Positions 1 to 8,386 of a DNA stretch of 8,386 nt are shown here, one piece after another. Below the pieces are notes generated by a model. That model saw only the letters and a program-made list of their open reading frames with translations. It was not told the DNA's origin and made no database searches. The DNA is from a virus (taxonomy: Monodnaviria; Loebvirae; Hofneiviricota; Faserviricetes; Tubulavirales; Inoviridae). The DNA is taken from the IMG/VR virus record IMGVR_UViG_2703718850_000001; one strand, written 5' to 3'. Each line of letters opens with the position of its first letter. Positions within the stretch are counted from its first letter, which is position 1. The position numbers and the translations under genes were made by a program.

Positions 1-771
1 ATGTGGAGTGCTATTGCTGGCGCTGCTGGCGCTATTGGTTCTGCTCTTCTTGGTGCTCATTCAGCAAAGGCTTCTGCTGACCGTGCCAATAAGATTACGA
101 TGGATTTGGCCAAAAATGGTATCCAGTATCGTGTGCAGGATTTACGGAAAGCTGGCCTCAATCCCATTCTGGCCGTTACAGGTTCCGGTGGTCTTGGTTC
201 CGTCAGTTCGTCAGGTATTCAGGCTGCCCAGCCTGCTGATTTTTCTGGTGCCGTCAGTTCTGCCGTTGCTGCATTTGATGCCTTAACGAAGCGTCAACAG
301 CAACAGGTTGCTAAGGAAGGTATTGAGTCACAGATTGCTTTGCAGCGTAACCAGATTGCGAATAGTGCGGCTGATGTACGTCTTAAGGATGCACAGGCTG
401 CTGCCGCTCTCCAGAACGTTGAGAACATGAAAACACAGTCTAATCTGACCAATCAGCAGATTTTGACCGAGGCAAGTCGGAGAGCTAATATCGAAGCACA
501 GACAGGCCTTAGCTCTGCACAGCGGATTAGAACTCAATATCAGACTGTTCAGGACAAGGTTCTGGCTGATTATTTGAATACACCTGTTGGAGCTGAAAGT
601 GCACGTGTCAATATGGATGCTTCTTCTGGCGGTCTTATCGGCGGGCTTAATACTTGGCTTAGTTCTTATAAGCGTGACCATGAGGCTAATTCGGCGAAGA
701 AAGTAAACAAGGGGGGACGCTTCCCCCCTTCACAGTTCCAGCAGCAGTTGATTAACAATTATCGGAGGTAA
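1..771 (+). CDS. Microviridae-like DNA pilot / minor spike protein (H/VP2-like)
   Basis: 256-aa ORF starting with ATG at window base 1. Gly/Ala-rich N-terminus MWSAIAGAAGAIGSALLG resembles the remembered phiX174 H N-terminus (MFGAIAGG...), followed by a Gln-rich, coiled-coil-like middle. Immediately followed by a J-like basic peptide gene. Call by recalled resemblance, no search run. Confidence 0.5.
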   Translation: MWSAIAGAAGAIGSALLGAHSAKASADRANKITMDLAKNGIQYRVQDLRKAGLNPILAVTGSGGLGSVSSSGIQAAQPADFSGAVSSAVAAFDALTKRQQQQVAKEGIESQIALQRNQIANSAADVRLKDAQAAAALQNVENMKTQSNLTNQQILTEASRRANIEAQTGLSSAQRIRTQYQTVQDKVLADYLNTPVGAESARVNMDASSGGLIGGLNTWLSSYKRDHEANSAKKVNKGGRFPPSQFQQQLINNYRR

Positions 772-773
772 TT

Positions 774-893
774 ATGGCTCGTTCCCGTAGACGTATGTCT
801 AAGCGTTCTTCCCGCCGTTCGTTCCGCAAGTATGCGAAGTCGCATAAGAAGAACTTTAAAGCCCGCTCAATGCGTGGCGGTATCCGTTTATAA
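774..893 (+). CDS. Small Arg/Lys-rich DNA-binding/packaging peptide (phiX174 J / gokushovirus VP8-like)
   Basis: 39 codons ATG..TAA, MARSRRRMSKRSSRRSFRKYAKSHKKNFKARSMRGGIRL; 18 of 39 residues are R/K. GGAGG at 764-768 lies 5 nt before the ATG. Too short for the ORF track. Position right after a pilot-like gene fits a microvirus structural module. Confidence 0.5.
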   Translation: MARSRRRMSKRSSRRSFRKYAKSHKKNFKARSMRGGIRL

Positions 894-909
894 TCGCAAA
901 TCTGGCACC

Positions 910-938
910 TTTTGACATAACTTTACATTATGCGCACC
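910..938. other. dif-like XerC/XerD recombination site (candidate IMEX attachment junction)
   Basis: Minus strand reads GGTGCGCATAA-TGTAAAG-TTATGTCAAAA. Against the E. coli dif consensus GGTGCGCATAA-TGTATA-TTATGTTAAAT the XerC arm is 11/11, the XerD arm 9/11 and the central region is 7 bp rather than 6. It sits in the non-coding gap between the microvirus-like genes and the inovirus-side genes. Confidence 0.55.
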
Positions 939-976: not shown

Positions 977-1210
977 TCATTGGTCACAGACCGTAATCCA
1001 CTGGCCCAGGACGTCTTTCAGGCAATGTTGGCATAAATCCAGTTTTAAGCGATTACTGTCACCAAAAATTGAACCGTATCCAGCTAAGTGATTAACAGAC
1101 AGAAACTCATTGAACTCAATGTCATCTACCACCGTCTTCGCATGGCGACCACAGCGATCGCAGGTCTTCGCACATAACATTACAGTATCGCTGGATGTGA
1201 AAAATTGCAT
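977..1210 (-). CDS. Hypothetical 77-aa protein with CxxC...CxxC (putative zinc ribbon)
   Basis: ATG at 1210 with GGAG 6 nt upstream (minus strand), TGA stop at 977-979. Two Cys pairs, CDRC and CQHC, about 40 residues apart. No homologue recognised. Lies between phage gene IV and the dif-like site. Confidence 0.5.
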   Translation of the reverse strand: MQFFTSSDTVMLCAKTCDRCGRHAKTVVDDIEFNEFLSVNHLAGYGSIFGDSNRLKLDLCQHCLKDVLGQWITVCDQ

Positions 1211-1327: not shown

Positions 1328-1636
1328 TCATATAAACCAATAGACCGTCCTTACGCCATTCTGGTTATCAATAACATAGCCGCATTGTTTCCTTAAAAAT
1401 TCTTCTGCTAAATCAATGGCTTTTACAGAAATCTCATAAGAAGGAAGTAAAGTGTATCCTTTCCCTTCACTGGCAGCTGCTTTGATCGCATCCAGAGTAT
1501 TATCAATCAGTAACAGAGCAAGTGATGCTTCATTTACCTGAGCCGAAGAACTTCTGGCTGCAAGTGTCATTGTTTTTGCTTCTTCCGCTGTAATCGTTCG
1601 TTCTGCCAGAGCAGATAAAATCCCATAAGAATCCAT
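1328..1636 (-). CDS. Hypothetical 102-aa protein (unknown function)
   Basis: ATG at 1636 with a weak GGGG Shine-Dalgarno upstream, TGA stop at 1328-1330. Same strand as the phage genes, directly downstream of gene IV. No homologue recognised. Confidence 0.45.
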   Translation of the reverse strand: MDSYGILSALAERTITAEEAKTMTLAARSSSAQVNEASLALLLIDNTLDAIKAAASEGKGYTLLPSYEISVKAIDLAEEFLRKQCGYVIDNQNGVRTVYWFI

Positions 1637-4415: not shown

Positions 4416-4833
4416 CACTCACCTCCTTTGCGAAGCAATGAAGTTAAAGAAGTAAAGACATACCAGAACGTAAGGCAATAAAAAACCCATGAAAGAACAT
4501 CTTTAATAGTCAGTAATTTATCGCAACCAATATCAATCTGATAAACCTCTCCGGGAAAAATAATAAAATCAGAGCAGCCGTTACCATTGGGTAAATTAGG
4601 CAGCATAGCACCTTTATTTAAAAATGCTTCCCATAAAGCACCGTGAGAATCCTTTTCAATTCCCAATTCAGAATCAGCCAAAGTAGAAGCGCCATCTAAT
4701 TCAGAGTCGCCCTTTCCATAACGAGAATCACCACCTGAAGGGTCAGCAAAACGGCCAGCCCCCCGCGTAAGATTGTTAATGGAATCGTCAAGACGATTTA
4801 TATTATTCCTGGTTTGTTCATCGGCATTTTTTT
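4415..4833 (-). CDS. III: Gene III g3p C-terminal domain in the -1 frame (frameshifted continuation; pseudogene or slippage product)
   Basis: This frame is open from the A7 tract (plus 4827-4833) to TGA at 4417-4415. It encodes ...[51 protein letters not shown]..., resembling the M13 g3p C-terminal anchor (...ECRPFVFGAGKPYEFSIDCDKINLFRGVFAFLLYVATFMYVFSTF). It has no start of its own; the track's 4681 start is TTG. Confidence 0.7.
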
Positions 4834-5649
4834 ATCATCTGATGAAGTGTCTTTCTCCGTTAATTTATCATGAATATCGCTGGCTATTTTGGGTGAAGCA
4901 CCTTCGATCGCAGACTGAATATCACCTTTAGAAAGACTGGAACCACTAGAGCCACCGCCAGAACTACCGCCACCGGACTCACCACCGCCAGACTCACCAC
5001 CGCCGGACTCACCACCGCCAGACTCACCACCACCATTTTGGGGGGGTGAGGGTTTATCAGAGGGGTCAGCTACAGCACCTGTAGGCTTCCATGTTGCAGC
5101 GCAAACAGTACCATCACCCTGACAAACAATGACACCAGTAGCCTCATATTCACAGCCGTTATAGTAGATATAGCGACCACCATCATATGAATCAACATTA
5201 TTAAACACACCTTCTTCTGGCGGCTTCGCTTCACAAATTTCTTCTGGTGTCGGGTCAGTAGGTTTTTCATCAGGAACAGAACGCTGAATATTACCAACAA
5301 TATAAGCCGTTAAAGACCAATATTTATCCTTCTGCCCTGGTGAATCGCTGTAAGTACAATCACCAGTAAAAACAAGACGGAATTCAGAATCAGGCCAGAT
5401 ACCCTCATAAGTTGGTTTAACCCGAGTAAATACACTCTGAGCACTGGATTTAGCACCCTGACAAGCGGAGGCCTGCATAGCAGCATCAATATAGTAAACC
5501 GTTGTCTTAGAGCCATCCTGATTGGTTATTTGCTTACTTTCAGCGTAGGCAGAACTTTGATAAGTGGATTTAGTAATGCTTTCCCATGACTCAGCATGTG
5601 AAAAAGGAGAAATGAGGACAGCGGAAAGAATTAATATTTTCCTTTTCAT
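4798..5649 (-). CDS. III: Gene III adsorption protein g3p, N-terminal part (signal peptide, receptor domains, Gly-rich linker); reading frame ends early
   Basis: ATG at 5649-5647 gives [19 protein letters not shown] (signal peptide). A TolA-binding-N1-like segment [29 protein letters not shown] resembles M13 DRYANYEGCLWNATGVVVCTGDETQCYGTW, then a (GGGES)n linker. The frame stops at 4800-4798, 11 codons after an A7 run. The ORF-track extension to 5793 overlaps gene VIII in another frame and is not used. Confidence 0.75.
4951..5034 (-). repeat. Tandem 15-bp coding repeats (about 5 units) encoding the g3p [10 protein letters not shown] linker
   Basis: Plus strand shows repeating units of the form accaccgccagactc / accaccgccggactc; minus strand translation [30 protein letters not shown]. 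Confidence 0.8.
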
Positions 5650-6470: not shown

Positions 6471-6785
6471 TTAATGCCAGCTACTGGCGTGCGAAATACG
6501 GTTGTAATCGAAAATAAAACCTTTCTCATAAATCCATAAGGGGATTTCCGCTGGCTTGGCTTCCAGCGTTCTTATTAGCGGAACAACGTTATTAGAGTCT
6601 GGTGAATCACAATAGAAATTAATATCGATACCGAACGAAAGCAATTCTCTTCTATGGCGATAAAAAGTGTTATGAGGTAACATTTCTTTCATGTTAGCCC
6701 CTTGTTTCCAAAGTAAATAAGTTGACTGTATTTTTCTTGGCAGTTTCGTTATTTTTTCATCACTTAAAATAGCATTCTGATTCAT
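6471..6785 (-). CDS. X: Putative pX (in-frame internal start within gene II)
   Basis: In-frame ATG at 6785-6783 with GGGAG 8 nt upstream; product MNQNAILSDEK... (104 aa) aligns with the start of M13 pX (MNIYDDSAVLDA...). Inferred by analogy with Ff. Confidence 0.4.
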   Translation of the reverse strand: MNQNAILSDEKITKLPRKIQSTYLLWKQGANMKEMLPHNTFYRHRRELLSFGIDINFYCDSPDSNNVVPLIRTLEAKPAEIPLWIYEKGFIFDYNRISHASSWH

Positions 6786-7565
6786 TTCTATTCTCCCTAC
6801 ATATTCAGAGAATAATTGACGTGGTGTTTTCATATTCCAGTTAGCGCCAAGCGTTAAATTTAAATCAATAAGCTCAGTTGTTCTTAATGTTAATTCAATA
6901 CGTAATTTATCTTTCGTCCAGTCCAGTAACCCGGCTCGTACAAACTCTTCGGCTATCTGGTGCCCTTTTTTACCAGAAACGTGTTCATCATATTTTGAAT
7001 AAAATTTCAGACTCCATCGACGGGAGTTTTTACCTAAATAAACTGTACCGCCTTTCCCACATGCGCGACCATGGCGTGTTTTAGCTTTAAATTCGGCGGC
7101 ATAAAGCCATGATCTGACATTTTCCAGCGTAGATAATGAATACATGTAATTAATGTCAACACGTGAAATTTTATACTGACCTGCCATAACGGCTTTATAA
7201 GACGCTAAATCATGAGGAATATTCAATAAGGATAAAATCCTGGCATAGACCGTCAACATGAGCCCTTGTATATCATCCGACCCAACAACAGAATGCCCCT
7301 GCAGAAACTTGGAAGGATTACCATCAATGTACAAATGTGTCGCTTTACCTTCGCCATTAGATCCTATCGATCGTACTTTCATCGTTGCTTCATGCGAGCC
7401 GCGAACAGTCAGTCGCTTAACGGTTTCCCACTCAATTGCACCGTCAGCATCAACGCTGACAACACTCCCCGCCGGAAGCGGTTTGTGTGTGCAAGGGAAA
7501 ATCCCGGTAAGCCAATCGATCACGAATAAATCCTCAAAATTGCAAAAATGACGACTTACTAACAC
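6471..7565 (-). CDS. II: Rolling-circle replication initiator pII (gene II); start uncertain
   Basis: Matches remembered M13 pII at NPSKFLQGHSVVG (M13 PAKVLQGHNVFG) and SNNVVPLIR (M13 CNNVVPLVR). The track start at 7565 is GTG; a better-supported start is GTG 7520-7518, preceded by GAGGA, giving about 349 aa. Shorter than M13 pII (410 aa). Confidence 0.85.
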   Translation of the reverse strand: MLVSRHFCNFEDLFVIDWLTGIFPCTHKPLPAGSVVSVDADGAIEWETVKRLTVRGSHEATMKVRSIGSNGEGKATHLYIDGNPSKFLQGHSVVGSDDIQGLMLTVYARILSLLNIPHDLASYKAVMAGQYKISRVDINYMYSLSTLENVRSWLYAAEFKAKTRHGRACGKGGTVYLGKNSRRWSLKFYSKYDEHVSGKKGHQIAEEFVRAGLLDWTKDKLRIELTLRTTELIDLNLTLGANWNMKTPRQLFSEYVGRIEMNQNAILSDEKITKLPRKIQSTYLLWKQGANMKEMLPHNTFYRHRRELLSFGIDINFYCDSPDSNNVVPLIRTLEAKPAEIPLWIYEKGFIFDYNRISHASSWH

Positions 7566-7692
7566 ATGAGTTCAGTAGTTCATTAGTGTTTTAACATTAC
7601 ACCAGTGAGCTAGTGAGTTCAAGAGGCTTGGATGATATGAGTTCATGAGCATGTATACTCACTTCAAATATTGCATTGAACGAGCGTAAAAA
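7566..7692. promoter_or_regulatory. Divergent intergenic control region with repeated TGAGTTCA motifs (candidate operator or origin repeats and promoters)
   Basis: ATGAGTTCA at 7566-7574 and 7637-7645, GTGAGTTCA at 7613-7621, plus partial copies (TAGTTCA 7576-7582, AGTGAGC 7604-7610). Candidate minus-strand promoter for gene II: TTGAAC (plus 7617-7622), 17-bp spacer, TAATGT (plus 7594-7599). Candidate plus-strand -10 TATACT at 7654-7659 for the regulator gene. Confidence 0.4.
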
Positions 7693-7875
7693 ATGGCAAA
7701 GCGCACGACTTATAACGTGACGGAAGAAAGAAAAATGAAACTAGAACGACTGGCTATAAATGCCAGTGTAAAACTAGGAAAAACAATTACATGGACAGAG
7801 ATTTTAGGTTATCTGATTGATAACTACTCTAAAGATGCAGCAGAAGATCTCATGTCTGCCAAACAAAAGGATTAA
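7693..7875 (+). CDS. Ribbon-helix-helix (CopG/Arc-like) transcriptional regulator, candidate phage repressor
   Basis: 60 aa, MAKRTTYNVTEERKMKLERLAINASVKLGKTITWTEILGYLIDNYSKD. The pattern (basic N-terminal strand, then two helices) matches the remembered CopG fold (MKKRLTITLSESVLENLEKMAREMGLSKSAMISVALENYKK). Divergently transcribed from gene II, like rstR relative to rstA in CTXphi. Confidence 0.55.
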   Translation: MAKRTTYNVTEERKMKLERLAINASVKLGKTITWTEILGYLIDNYSKDAAEDLMSAKQKD

Positions 7876-7893
7876 GTACCACGAATGGTACAA

Positions 7894-7930
7894 ACGTGCA
7901 GTATTACCAACACTGCACGTTCTTTATTGT
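7894..7930 (+). terminator. Rho-independent terminator downstream of the RHH gene
   Basis: 9-bp stem ACGTGCAGT (7894-7902) pairs with ACTGCACGT (7912-7920), 9-nt loop, followed by TCTTTATTGTG. Confidence 0.5.
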
Positions 7931-7963
7931 GCGAATTTTGAACAGTGAAAAAGGATCAAAAGG

Positions 7964-8386
7964 ATGAGTAGAAATAACGAAACAAGCGGCGTTGAACTGG
8001 TTGTCGTCGGCGTATTTGCTTTCTGTCTGGCAGTTGTTGCCTGGCTAATGAAAACTTTCGATGTTGAATGGCAAACAGCACTGGAAACTGCGCCTGGCCT
8101 GGTAGTCTGGTTGCTTGCTGTCGGAGCGGGGATCTTTTTCGGGATCAAAATGGAAACAGGTCTTGTTCGCTGGGGTGCTCCACTGGCGATCGCCCTTCTG
8201 ATTCCGGTATTCAAACCAATTCTTAAGGAAGCTGCCGGAGTACGTGAAATGGGTGGGTTGGTTTTCGATGATATGGTTTCGTGGTACGGAACTGGCTGGG
8301 GAATGTCGTTGATGTTTTTCGGAATTCTTATCATTGGATACGGACTTCTTTATTGGTGGCACAGAAGAAACTCATATTACTGGTAA
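7964..8386 (+). CDS. Small integral membrane protein (about 4 predicted TM segments), unknown function
   Basis: 140 aa; ATG at 7964 preceded by AAAGG/AAGGA; hydrophobic stretches VVVGVFAFCLAVVAWLM, LVVWLLAVGAGIFFGI, APLAIALLIPVF, MSLMFFGILIIGYGLLYWW. Stop TAA is the last three bases of the window. Preferred over the overlapping minus-strand ORF 7924-8334, which is Pro/Thr/Ser-rich and low in complexity. Confidence 0.5.
   Translation: MSRNNETSGVELVVVGVFAFCLAVVAWLMKTFDVEWQTALETAPGLVVWLLAVGAGIFFGIKMETGLVRWGAPLAIALLIPVFKPILKEAAGVREMGGLVFDDMVSWYGTGWGMSLMFFGILIIGYGLLYWWHRRNSYYW

What the first reader, a model, noticed from the sequence alone, without database searches (positions are those of the whole stretch)
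7693..8386. RHH regulator plus small 4-TM membrane protein flanking the replication gene
This module has no counterpart in Ff or IKe phages. An RHH protein divergent from gene II suggests a repressor-based temperate lifestyle. The 140-aa membrane protein downstream of it could be a superinfection-exclusion or immunity-type factor, or simply a host gene at the edge of the element. The window ends exactly at its stop codon, so the right boundary of the element is not visible.
Basis: inference. Interest (0 to 1): 0.45.

Follow-up and report, generated by a model that had tools for sequence, protein, structure and literature searches.

The report
Repressor and membrane protein of filamentous prophage
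The two small genes are the repressor-side genes of a known type of filamentous prophage (CUS-1/YpfPhi-like) sitting at the E. coli dif site: a ribbon-helix-helix repressor with its operator repeats, and a conserved but uncharacterised four-helix inner-membrane protein that belongs to the phage, not the host.

Summary
Both ORFs are real: 60 aa at 7693-7875 and 140 aa at 7964-8386. Both are conserved and under purifying selection.

The window is an exact slice of an E. coli chromosome. It holds a CUS-1/YpfPhi-type inovirus prophage at dif, beside hipBA, with a gokushovirus prophage on its other side.

The 140-aa protein has four predicted transmembrane helices, probably N-in/C-in. It lies inside the prophage, which continues about 1.1 kb to the right. 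It follows the repressor in at least five inovirus lineages, and variable cargo follows it (here an AbiJ-like gene). Lone copies persist beside dif in two other genera.

Its function is untested. Superinfection exclusion or protection of the lysogen is my best guess (about 35%).

This is a known kind of module and of modest interest.

The parts
6471..7523 (-). Gene II (replication initiator, II/X family). It is the divergent neighbour whose promoter the regulator is proposed to control.
   Evidence: Pfam Phage_CRI 9.1e-70 and G2P_X_C 2.5e-29. The annotated 350-aa start is at 7523. Homology to the sister phage's pII stops at 7522.
7524..7692 (.). 169-bp divergent regulatory region between gene II and the regulator gene, equivalent to an immunity/operator region.
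   Evidence: TGAGTTCA occurs 3 times here against 0.34 expected in the whole window. Repeat families D1 and D2 fall here. The region has no homology to the sister phage that carries an HTH repressor. The conserved blocks among 80-95% relatives are the AGTTCA-containing ones.
7568..7587 (+). Box cluster 1: GAGT-tcag-TAGT-tcat-TAGT, tetramer boxes at 8-bp period.
   Evidence: The pattern KAGB-N4-KAGB-N4-KAGB matches only here and at 7607-7626 in the whole window (0.07 expected; the pattern was defined after seeing the sequence). The block 'TAACACATGAGTTCA' is conserved in divergent relatives.
7607..7626 (+). Box cluster 2: GAGC-tagt-GAGT-tcaa-GAGG. It overlaps the candidate -35 of the gene II promoter.
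   Evidence: The block GTGAGTTCAAGAGG is invariant in all relatives. Its reverse complement contains TTGAAC (sequence).
7631..7650 (+). Box cluster 3: GATG-atat-GAGT-tcat-GAGC. It lies between the -35 and -10 of the regulator's own promoter.
   Evidence: The block GTTCATGAGC is conserved.
7632..7659 (+). Promoter-like site for the regulator gene (-35 ATGATA, 16 nt spacer, -10 TATACT).
   Evidence: The sequence GCATGTATACTCAC is shared with the Y. enterocolitica phage's regulator upstream region. This is a consensus match only.
7594..7622 (-). Candidate gene II promoter (TTGAAC, 17 nt spacer, TAATGT). It is weak (7 of 12 matches) and inferred.
   Evidence: Read by eye from the reverse-complement sequence. 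It falls below the scan threshold, but the -35 block is conserved.
7693..7875 (+). 60-aa RHH-type small 'RstR-like' regulator. The invariant ribbon is K3 R4 T6 Y7 N8 V9 T10; helices span 11-28 and 34-59.
7876..7891 (+). Hairpin 1 (GTACCA-cgaa-TGGTAC), immediately after the regulator's stop codon.
   Evidence: The stem covaries in other loci (GTCTCA..TGAGAC, ATCTCA..TGAGAC).
7893..7929 (+). Hairpin 2 (AACGTGCAGT-loop-ACTGCACGTT) followed by TTCTTTATT. It is terminator-like, or possibly a single-strand DNA signal.
   Evidence: I2; RNA -21.2 kcal/mol, z -3.5; DNA, z -4.6. The stem is invariant (one loop base varies) wherever this upstream segment accompanies the 140-aa gene, including the lone Lonsdalea copy.
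7964..8386 (+). 140-aa four-helix inner-membrane protein (phrog_4174). The conserved motifs are P73, P85, WYGTGWG and GYGLLYWW. The predicted topology is N-in/C-in.
911..938 (-). dif-like junction (GGTGCGCATAATGTAAAGTTATGTCAAA) marking the other end of the inovirus prophage. Gokushovirus DNA lies to its left.

Best explanation
The region is the repressor-side (lysogeny-side) transcription unit of a CUS-1/YpfPhi-type filamentous prophage. The prophage is integrated by host XerCD at the E. coli dif site.

(1) The 60-aa protein is a dimeric ribbon-helix-helix repressor of the small 'RstR-like' family. I propose that it binds arrays of (G)AGTTCA / GAGT-type boxes spaced 8 bp apart in the 169-bp intergenic region. 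Binding would occlude the gene II (replication and structural operon) promoter, and the protein's own promoter as well. This would keep the prophage quiet and give phage-specific immunity, as RstR/ig-2 does in CTXphi.

(2) After a double hairpin that probably attenuates transcription, the same strand encodes a 140-aa inner-membrane protein with four helices, probably N-in/C-in. This gene is a semi-core, lysogen-expressed gene of this inovirus group. It is followed by a variable cargo slot next to attP, which in this strain holds an AbiJ-like gene just outside the window. Its most likely role is to protect the lysogen at the inner membrane, by superinfection exclusion or by blocking DNA entry of incoming phage.

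Shown: the genes, the fold class, the family, the synteny, the repeats, membership of the prophage, and purifying selection. Inferred: DNA binding to the boxes, repression, co-transcription, membrane topology, and the exclusion function.
For: Identity and context. The window is identical to L016:10001-18386. DNA identity to E. coli prophages beside hipBA is 97-99%, and the prophage is tandemly duplicated in NCTC9104. dif and dif-like sites bracket the elements. The YpfPhi/CUS-1 literature describes the same organisation, with an untested 'RstR homolog' in this slot (PMC4266046).

Membrane protein. Four TM segments are predicted. The gene is inside the prophage. It sits directly after the regulator in five inovirus lineages whose regulators differ: 60-aa RHH, 148-aa HTH_3, 71+85 aa, 70 aa and 155-aa HTH. 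It is present in 128 of 5426 complete E. coli genomes, against 49 for the 60-aa gene and 18 for the AbiJ-like gene. The genes downstream of it vary. Lone copies lie 380-580 nt from dif in Mixta and Lonsdalea and remain under purifying selection. Distant homologs sit next to a CBASS system.
Against: No Pfam, NCBIfam or PADLOC model matches either protein. Foldseek against PDB found nothing for either model. The AF2 models have only moderate confidence (pLDDT 76 and 65). The ParG match is below conventional significance (79%; hmmsearch E 0.15).

The box pattern was defined after seeing the sequence, and the boxes could instead be gene II origin-binding repeats. I could not establish which experimentally tested rstR allele, if any, is of the small RHH type.

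For the 140-aa protein there is no homology to any characterised exclusion or defence protein and no experimental datum. The hairpin pair may stop transcription altogether. The exclusion function rests only on location, orientation and association.
Confidence: 0.55

Rival explanations
1. The 140-aa membrane protein and the downstream AbiJ_NTD4/DUF7014 (STM4504/CBY_0614 family) protein form one two-gene abortive-infection system. The membrane protein would act as sensor or effector.
For: The two genes are adjacent and co-oriented, with a strong terminator only after the second gene. The segment from 7865 to extended coordinate ~9500 is 99.5% identical between two otherwise different inoviruses. 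The 309-aa protein hits the PADLOC candidate PDC-S32 (E 4.5e-10) and AbiJ_NTD4.
Against: Only 18 complete E. coli genomes carry the AbiJ-like gene, against 128 for the 140-aa gene. In F11, GN02323, Y. enterocolitica, L055 and L072 the 140-aa gene is followed by unrelated genes. Lone copies are under purifying selection.
Confidence: 0.12
2. The pair is a toxin-antitoxin or addiction module. The RHH protein would be the antitoxin and autorepressor, and the small membrane protein the toxin, stabilising the episome or prophage.
Against: The 60-aa family occupies the rstR slot in many inoviruses that lack the 140-aa gene. The 140-aa gene occurs with unrelated HTH regulators and alone in Mixta and Lonsdalea with dN/dS 0.12-0.24. 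A hairpin pair separates the two genes. A 140-aa four-helix protein with conserved periplasmic motifs is unlike known small pore-forming toxins. No PADLOC or Pfam toxin model matches.
Confidence: 0.06
3. The 140-aa protein is a phage life-cycle factor rather than a host-protecting one. It might act as a membrane anchor, an assembly or secretion helper, or a modulator of envelope stress during chronic virion extrusion.
For: It is conserved next to the regulator in several inovirus lineages. It is predicted to sit in the inner membrane, where inovirus assembly takes place.
Against: It is encoded on the strand opposite all replication and morphogenesis genes. It is absent from If1, Ff, IKe, CTXphi and all deposited phage genomes, and apparently from YpfPhi: there was no Y. 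pestis hit, and the review says the CUS-1 ORFs at this end are replaced by unrelated ones. Copies without any phage are retained under selection. Homologs also occur on plasmids and in a CBASS island.
Confidence: 0.12
4. The repeated AGTTCA boxes are binding sites of the gene II initiator (part of the plus-strand origin) and not operators of the 60-aa protein. The 60-aa protein would then have another role, for example as an activator or copy-number factor.
For: Inovirus origins contain initiator-binding repeats near gene II (general knowledge of Ff). The boxes lie directly upstream of gene II.
Against: The sister phage has an 80%-identical gene II but none of these boxes, and the boxes co-vary with the regulator type. 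The 4-bp-box / 4-bp-spacer geometry matches RHH (ParG) operator architecture. One cluster lies inside the regulator's own promoter.
Confidence: 0.1
5. The 140-aa gene is a host chromosomal gene at the edge of the element.
For: The window ends at its stop codon. Lone homologs exist in the chromosomes of Mixta and Lonsdalea.
Against: The gene is duplicated along with the tandem prophage. It is present on a 9.5-kb circular episomal form. It is absent at the hipA/dif locus in strains without the inovirus. Only 128 of 5426 E. coli genomes have it. Even the lone copies abut dif.
Confidence: 0.01

Closest known systems
CUS-1 (E. coli O18:K1:H7) / YpfPhi (= CUS-2, Yersinia pestis) dif-integrating filamentous prophages
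   Same: They share the gene order (pIV, pI, pVI, pIII, pVIII, pV, pII on one strand; regulator and accessory ORFs on the other). They integrate at dif by XerCD, form tandem copies, and have unknown-function ORFs at both prophage ends (PMC4266046).
   Different: This copy carries an AbiJ-like cargo gene found in only 18 of 5426 E. coli genomes. Its gene III is frameshifted. It lies next to a gokushovirus prophage. According to the review, YpfPhi has unrelated ORFs (YPO2271/2272) at this end. I could not read the original CUS-1 paper, so the mapping onto 'orf1/orf1a' is unverified.
RstR / ig-2 immunity region of CTXphi, especially the small 'environmental' RstR alleles (GQ466611, KR063268, GU942563)
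   Same: The gene is divergent from the replication gene, with a short intergenic region full of repeats. The gene and its operators are replaced as a block between related phages. The protein is 40.7% identical to the environmental RstR. Allele-specific repression has been shown for RstR alleles (PMC11509585).
   Different: Canonical RstR(ET) is generally described as a longer HTH (Xre-type) repressor (from my knowledge, not tested here). The protein here is a 60-aa RHH-like protein with no HTH Pfam match. No RstC-like antirepressor or LexA site was looked for. Repression by this protein is untested.
ParG of plasmid TP228 (PDB 1p94) and CopG-type RHH repressors
   Same: The N-terminal ribbon (KRVNVNF versus KRTTYNVT), the G-x-T/S turn and helix B (ITDVVNQLVDNWLKE versus ITWTEILGYLIDNYSKD) align. 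The DNA target is likely to be arrays of 4-bp boxes with 4-bp spacers, in direct or inverted orientation.
   Different: Helix A is about 4-6 residues longer here. There is no ParF/ParA partner and no flexible N-terminal tail. Similarity is only at profile level (79%), and no Pfam family is shared.
PfsE of Pseudomonas Pf4 (a small inner-membrane protein that blocks type IV pili to prevent superinfection) and other phage membrane exclusion proteins
   Same: Both are inovirus-encoded small inner-membrane proteins. This is the functional analogy behind the proposed exclusion role (PMC8764522).
   Different: There is no sequence or fold similarity. By my recollection, not checked here, PfsE is far smaller, has a single TM helix and lies in the structural gene cluster. 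The protein here has 140 aa and 4 TM helices, and lies on the repressor strand. The receptor of CUS-1/YpfPhi is unknown. Function here is untested.

Membership tests
Ribbon-helix-helix (RHH) DNA-binding fold | beta-strand, helix, helix topology that superposes on solved RHH domains | tested here: met
Ribbon-helix-helix (RHH) DNA-binding fold | Sequence or profile similarity to a curated RHH family | tested here: inconclusive
   There is no Pfam or NCBIfam hit even at E<=10. The profile search against PDB gives ParG as best hit at E 0.15. hhalign to ParG gives 79% probability over ParG residues 34-74.
Ribbon-helix-helix (RHH) DNA-binding fold | Conserved polar residues at alternating ribbon positions, and a G-x-S/T turn before helix B | tested here: met
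   K3 R4 T6 Y7 N8 V9 T10 E11 are invariant, and G29-K-T31 is present. The pattern is kept across the wider family.
Ribbon-helix-helix (RHH) DNA-binding fold | Dimerisation and binding to repeated short boxes | not testable with these tools
   Only candidate boxes were found. No multimer or DNA-complex prediction was available.
RstR-type inovirus repressor (functional class) | Gene divergent from, and adjacent to, the replication initiator gene | tested here: met
   This holds in the window and for the homologs in VAI2, pre-CTX, CTXphi VC106, Dulem viruses, D_HF5_61 and V. cyclitrophicus phages.
RstR-type inovirus repressor (functional class) | Homology to a protein annotated or shown to be RstR | tested here: met
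   40.7% identity (E 4e-6) to the 'environmental RstR' of CTXphi IB1617 and pre-CTX, and 42% to the VAI1/2 'RstR-like' protein. These labels are annotations. I could not link this allele type to a published assay.
RstR-type inovirus repressor (functional class) | Regulator and operator region exchanged as one block between related phages (heteroimmunity) | tested here: met
   Window 7522-7865 has no counterpart in L003/L006/L007/L010, which carry an HTH_3 protein and a different intergenic region between 80%- and 99.5%-identical flanks.
RstR-type inovirus repressor (functional class) | Represses the rep promoter and confers immunity | not testable with these tools
   This needs reporter or EMSA assays.
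Type II antitoxin (RHH class) | Obligate pairing with a cognate toxin gene immediately downstream | tested here: not met
   The downstream gene matches no toxin family. Each partner occurs without the other.
CUS-1/YpfPhi-type dif-integrating inovirus | Inovirus core genes, no integrase, and flanking dif or dif-like sites in the terminus region | tested here: met
   The core genes are present. dif-like sites lie at window 911-938 and at about L016:19470-19497, with a near-perfect dif at L016:6424-6451. hipBA is adjacent.
Superinfection-exclusion membrane proteins | Inner-membrane localisation | tested here: met
   This is prediction only: four hydrophobic helices. The basic C-terminus (H133 R134 R135) and loop 62-69, with acidic loops 30-43 and 88-110, suggest an N-in/C-in topology.
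Superinfection-exclusion membrane proteins | Homology to a characterised exclusion or defence protein | tested here: not met
   There is no PADLOC, Pfam or NCBIfam hit, PHROG function is unknown, and no PDB sequence or fold hit was found.
Superinfection-exclusion membrane proteins | Blocks infection when expressed | not testable with these tools
   This needs infection or transduction assays.

The most novel reading that the evidence does not exclude
The 140-aa four-helix protein defines an unrecognised family that is widespread in temperate inoviruses (phrog_4174 and remote relatives). It is encoded directly after the repressor whatever the repressor type. It would act at the inner membrane to exclude incoming filamentous or other phages, for example by interfering with Tol-dependent DNA entry. 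It would be useful enough to the host to be kept on its own beside dif after the phage has decayed, and to be recruited into plasmid and CBASS defence islands.
Probability: 0.3. Interest if true: 0.6.

Novelty: new member of a known kind. Interest (0 to 1): 0.3.

Why it matters
CUS-1/YpfPhi-type prophages are linked to fitness of extra-intestinal E. coli and of Yersinia pestis. The reviews state that the regulator and the end-of-genome ORFs have never been characterised.

This analysis gives the regulator a fold (RHH, ParG-like), a family that reaches CTXphi and If1, and a concrete operator model that can be tested in a day. It also picks out one conserved membrane protein as the best candidate for a lysogen-expressed function. 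That separates it from the variable defence-like cargo slot beside attP.

None of this overturns current understanding. It refines the annotation of a known element.

Tried and rejected
- Pfam, NCBIfam and PADLOC scans of both proteins found nothing useful, even at E<=10 and for all family members.
- Foldseek against PDB gave no meaningful match for either model. The afdb50 library was unavailable.
- The PDB sequence-profile search with the narrow alignment gave only noise. The 140-aa profile had no PDB hit.
- An Rfam scan of 7400-8386 found nothing.
- The genome-contig scan with the 60-aa alignment gave only 4 loci and no Y. pestis locus. I therefore could not confirm that YPO2273 is this protein.
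- The original CUS-1 paper is not held.
- I could not map the small RstR allele to a named, assayed allele (232, 4**, and so on).
- The search for related loci with the broad alignment A3 failed.
- No paper mentions PDC-S32.
- I first read the 140-aa and AbiJ-like genes as a fixed two-gene cassette. I dropped that reading once genome counts and other loci showed that the downstream slot is variable.
- I considered that the window might be a circular chimeric inovirus-microvirus genome. I rejected this because the window is an exact internal slice of a longer chromosome contig.
Full report
**Observation.** A 60-aa ORF lies at 7693-7875 and a 140-aa ORF at 7964-8386, both on the + strand. They are divergent from gene II, which ORF listing gives as 6471-7565 on the minus strand. 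The annotated gene II start, and the end of homology to a sister phage, is 7523. Both ORFs are real genes. They match PHROG families of unknown function: phrog_2503 (E 3.6e-34) and phrog_4174 (E 1.7e-84). They have homologs across Enterobacterales. Pairwise dN/dS is 0.05-0.16 for the 60-aa gene and 0.05-0.38 for the 140-aa gene.

**What the window is.** The window is an exact slice (L016:10001-18386) of a contig of E. coli assembly GCA_001576205.1. From left to right the chromosome reads as follows:

- a near-perfect dif site (L016:6424-6451);
- a complete gokushovirus prophage, whose last two genes, VP2 and a 39-aa basic protein, are window 1-893;
- a dif-like site (window 911-938);
- an inovirus prophage;
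- a second dif-like site;
- hipA-hipB.

The inovirus is 97-99% identical to prophages found beside hipBA in other E. coli, and it is tandemly duplicated in NCTC9104. Its organisation is that of CUS-1/YpfPhi as described in PMC4266046. That review notes an untested 'RstR homolog' in this slot and unknown ORFs at both prophage ends. So the window ends at a gene boundary, not at the element's edge. The prophage continues for about 1.1 kb. That stretch holds a 309-aa AbiJ_NTD4/DUF7014 protein (NCBIfam STM4504/CBY_0614; PADLOC candidate PDC-S32), a strong terminator hairpin and the dif-like junction.

**The 60-aa protein: family.** tblastn against deposited phages showed that the protein belongs to a wider family. 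Members include the CTXphi and pre-CTX 'environmental RstR' (40.7% identity), the 'RstR-like' protein of Vibrio VAI1/2, and proteins of several oral 'Dulem' inoviruses, V. cyclitrophicus phages and an Aeromonas phage. In the annotated records inspected, the gene is divergent from and adjacent to the replication gene. The Aeromonas record carries no annotation. An intact, unannotated homolog (58.5% identity) lies in the 'major intergenic region' of the classical phage If1. A profile of this wider family (A4) finds the RHH protein ParG (1p94) as its best PDB hit (E 0.15). hhalign aligns it to ParG's entire RHH domain at 79% probability. I verified the ParG sequence. I therefore accept the RHH call on fold grounds. 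Sequence-level support is only moderate.

**The regulatory region.** The 169-bp region 7524-7692 contains TGAGTTCA three times, against 0.34 expected in the whole window. Read at 8-bp period, it forms three clusters of tetramer boxes with 4-nt spacers: 7568-7587, 7607-7626 and 7631-7650. The pattern KAGB-N4-KAGB-N4-KAGB occurs twice here and nowhere else (0.07 expected). That pattern was defined after seeing the sequence, so the statistic is inflated. Among relatives whose regulator gene is 80-95% identical, the conserved blocks of the region are the AGTTCA-containing ones and a -10-like TATACT. Cluster 3 lies between the -35 and -10 of the promoter-like site for the regulator. Cluster 2 overlaps a weak candidate -35 (TTGAAC) for gene II on the other strand, which I read by eye. 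This geometry is the one established for ParG, which binds ACTC boxes separated by 4-bp AT-rich spacers, in direct or inverted orientation (PMC3413123). Other members of the family each have their own short repeats in the equivalent region.

**Evidence that this is an immunity region.** A second inovirus, found in other assemblies whose host was not checked (L003/L006/L007/L010) and in E. coli genomes, shares pV and pII at 80% identity and everything from 7865 rightwards at 99.5%. It has no homology in 7522-7865. In that interval it carries a 148-aa HTH_3 protein and a different intergenic region without AGTTCA boxes. The regulator and its putative operators are therefore exchanged as one block, as with rstR/ig-2 in CTXphi. 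Allele-specific repression has been shown there by reporter assays (PMC11509585). I could not establish whether any assayed allele is of the small RHH type.

**Between the two genes.** Two hairpins lie directly after the regulator's stop codon, at 7876-7891 and 7893-7921, followed by TTCTTTATT. As RNA they fold at -21.2 kcal/mol (z -3.5), and as DNA of the packaged strand the z-score is -4.6. Hairpin 1 covaries between loci (GTACCA/TGGTAC, GTCTCA/TGAGAC). The stem of hairpin 2 is invariant (one loop base varies) in every locus that keeps this upstream segment, including the 80%-diverged lone copy in Lonsdalea. A few loci (L025/L026, L051-L053) have a different upstream sequence. I read this as an attenuating terminator. 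A single-strand DNA signal, such as a minus-strand origin or packaging signal, is not excluded.

**The 140-aa protein: structure and location.** Hydropathy gives four segments, at about 10-29, 44-61, 66-87 and 110-132. AF2 (pLDDT 65) gives helices 9-32, 36-62, 67-90 and 111-137. The basic residues at 62, 69 and 134-135, together with acidic loops at 30-43 and 88-110, suggest an N-in/C-in topology. This is inference. The protein has no Pfam, NCBIfam, PADLOC or PDB relative, and no deposited phage genome encodes it. An exhaustive profile search of 1.84 billion representatives found only 41 relatives. They share the same length and the same motifs: P73, P85, WYG..W and GYG.

**The 140-aa protein: context.** The context is informative in four ways.

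- The gene is part of the phage. It is duplicated with the tandem prophage. It is present on a 9.5-kb circular episome. It is absent at the hipA locus in strains that have only the gokushovirus.
- It follows the regulator in at least five inovirus lineages with different regulators. These are the 60-aa RHH; the 148-aa HTH_3; a 71-aa homolog of the RHH plus an 85-aa ORF in Y. enterocolitica; a 70-aa protein in an IMG/VR inovirus, where the membrane protein is 38% identical; and a 155-aa HTH protein, where it is only 26% identical.
- It is much commoner than its neighbours. 128 of 5426 complete E. coli genomes carry it, against 49 with the 60-aa region and 18 with the AbiJ-like gene. What follows it varies: AbiJ-like here, 155+123 aa in F11, 264 aa plus DUF6953 in GN02323, and 54, 105 and 257 aa in Yersinia. 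It is therefore a semi-core gene upstream of a variable cargo slot next to attP.
- Lone copies in Mixta and Lonsdalea lie 380-580 nt from the chromosomal dif and are still under purifying selection (dN/dS 0.24 and 0.12). Distant homologs sit on a T4SS plasmid-like contig and directly upstream of a type II CBASS on IncHI2 plasmids and a chromosomal island.

**Mechanism for the 140-aa protein.** The gene is co-oriented with the repressor and opposite to all replication and morphogenesis genes. It is dispensable in related phages, retained without the phage, and associated with defence genes. The best-supported reading is a lysogen-expressed inner-membrane protein that benefits the host-prophage pair. 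The most likely mechanism is superinfection exclusion or a block to entry, and I put this at about 35%.

The rivals are as follows.

- A morphogenesis or envelope-stress helper (about 12%).
- A partner of the AbiJ-like protein (about 12%). The 18 versus 128 genome counts weaken this.
- A toxin paired with the RHH as antitoxin (about 6%). This is contradicted by each gene occurring without the other.
- A host gene. This is refuted.

For the regulator, the main rival is that the boxes are pII origin repeats (about 10%). The block swap argues against it.

**Comparison with known systems and verdict.** This is a member of the known CUS-1/YpfPhi group. Its regulator belongs to the small RstR-like class, which is already annotated as such by position in Vibrio phages. 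The fold assignment, the ParG-like operator model, the If1 homolog and the recognition of the 4-TM family as a conserved repressor-adjacent inovirus gene are useful refinements, not surprises. Interest is modest at 0.3. The most novel reading still open is that the 4-TM family is a general inovirus exclusion factor (probability about 0.3, interest 0.6 if true).

Noticed in passing
window 1-938; L016:6424-10938: The left end of the window is not inovirus. Positions 1-771 encode a gokushovirus (Microviridae) VP2 DNA-pilot protein and 774-893 a 39-aa arginine-rich VP8-like protein (84.7% identical to Microvirus mar4). A dif-like site follows at 911-938. In the source contig a complete gokushovirus prophage sits between a near-perfect dif and the inovirus, so two unrelated ssDNA phages form a tandem array at dif. 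The eLife gokushovirus paper (PMC7062461) does not mention filamentous co-residents.
   Followed up: partly
window ~4828-4831 (gene III, 4418-5649, minus strand): The attachment protein gene III is frameshifted relative to the intact 410-aa homolog in L005. Residues 1-273 read in frame -2 and residues 273-410 in frame -1. This prophage copy may be unable to make infectious virions, or the assembly has an indel error.
   Followed up: partly
L058:2492-2683 (Escherichia phage If1, U02303.1, complement of ~5119-5310): The classical phage If1 has an intact, unannotated ORF 58.5% identical to the 60-aa regulator. It lies inside its annotated 1.2-kb 'major intergenic region', on the strand opposite the structural genes and next to IS200/IS605-like ORFs.
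   Followed up: partly
window 7876-7929 and equivalent positions in L001-L054: A double hairpin lies upstream of the 140-aa gene in every locus that keeps this upstream segment, whatever regulator precedes it. Stem 1 shows compensatory changes. The stem of hairpin 2 is invariant (one loop base varies) even in the 80%-diverged lone Lonsdalea copy, so it is more conserved than the coding sequence. It may be more than a terminator, for example a single-strand origin or packaging signal.
   Followed up: partly
L016:18470-19497 (about 84-1111 nt to the right of the window end): The next gene is a 309-aa AbiJ_NTD4 + DUF7014 protein (NCBIfam STM4504/CBY_0614; PADLOC candidate PDC-S32). A strong GC-rich terminator hairpin and a dif-like site follow it. 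This cargo is present in only 18 of 5426 complete E. coli genomes. Other prophages of the group carry different genes in the same slot, which makes it look like a defence-cargo hotspot beside attP.
   Followed up: partly
L015, L017, L018: 11198-13583: In other E. coli strains a different small element lies between the gokushovirus prophage and hipA, at the same dif locus. It encodes a 272-aa protein and a 450-aa SIR2_2-domain protein.
   Followed up: no
L068:5117-11307; L070/L071:6125-12314: A 36%-identical homolog of the 140-aa protein is the third gene of a 108-161-138 aa trio. The trio lies directly upstream of a type II CBASS operon (DncV-like NTase, ThiF, JAB, SAVED) on IncHI2 plasmids and in a chromosomal island.
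   Followed up: no
L022:8595-9411; L027:8390-9423: Lone homologs of the 140-aa gene in Mixta intestinalis and Lonsdalea quercina lie 380-580 nt from the chromosomal dif site. No other phage genes are called nearby. dN/dS is 0.24 and 0.12. This suggests a remnant or mini-element retained for the host's benefit.
   Followed up: partly
window 977-1210 and 1328-1636 (minus strand): Two further conserved unknown ORFs lie at the other prophage end: 77 aa (phrog_5435, with a CxxC pair) and 102 aa (phrog_4115). By position they probably correspond to YPO2280a and YPO2281 of YpfPhi.
   Followed up: no
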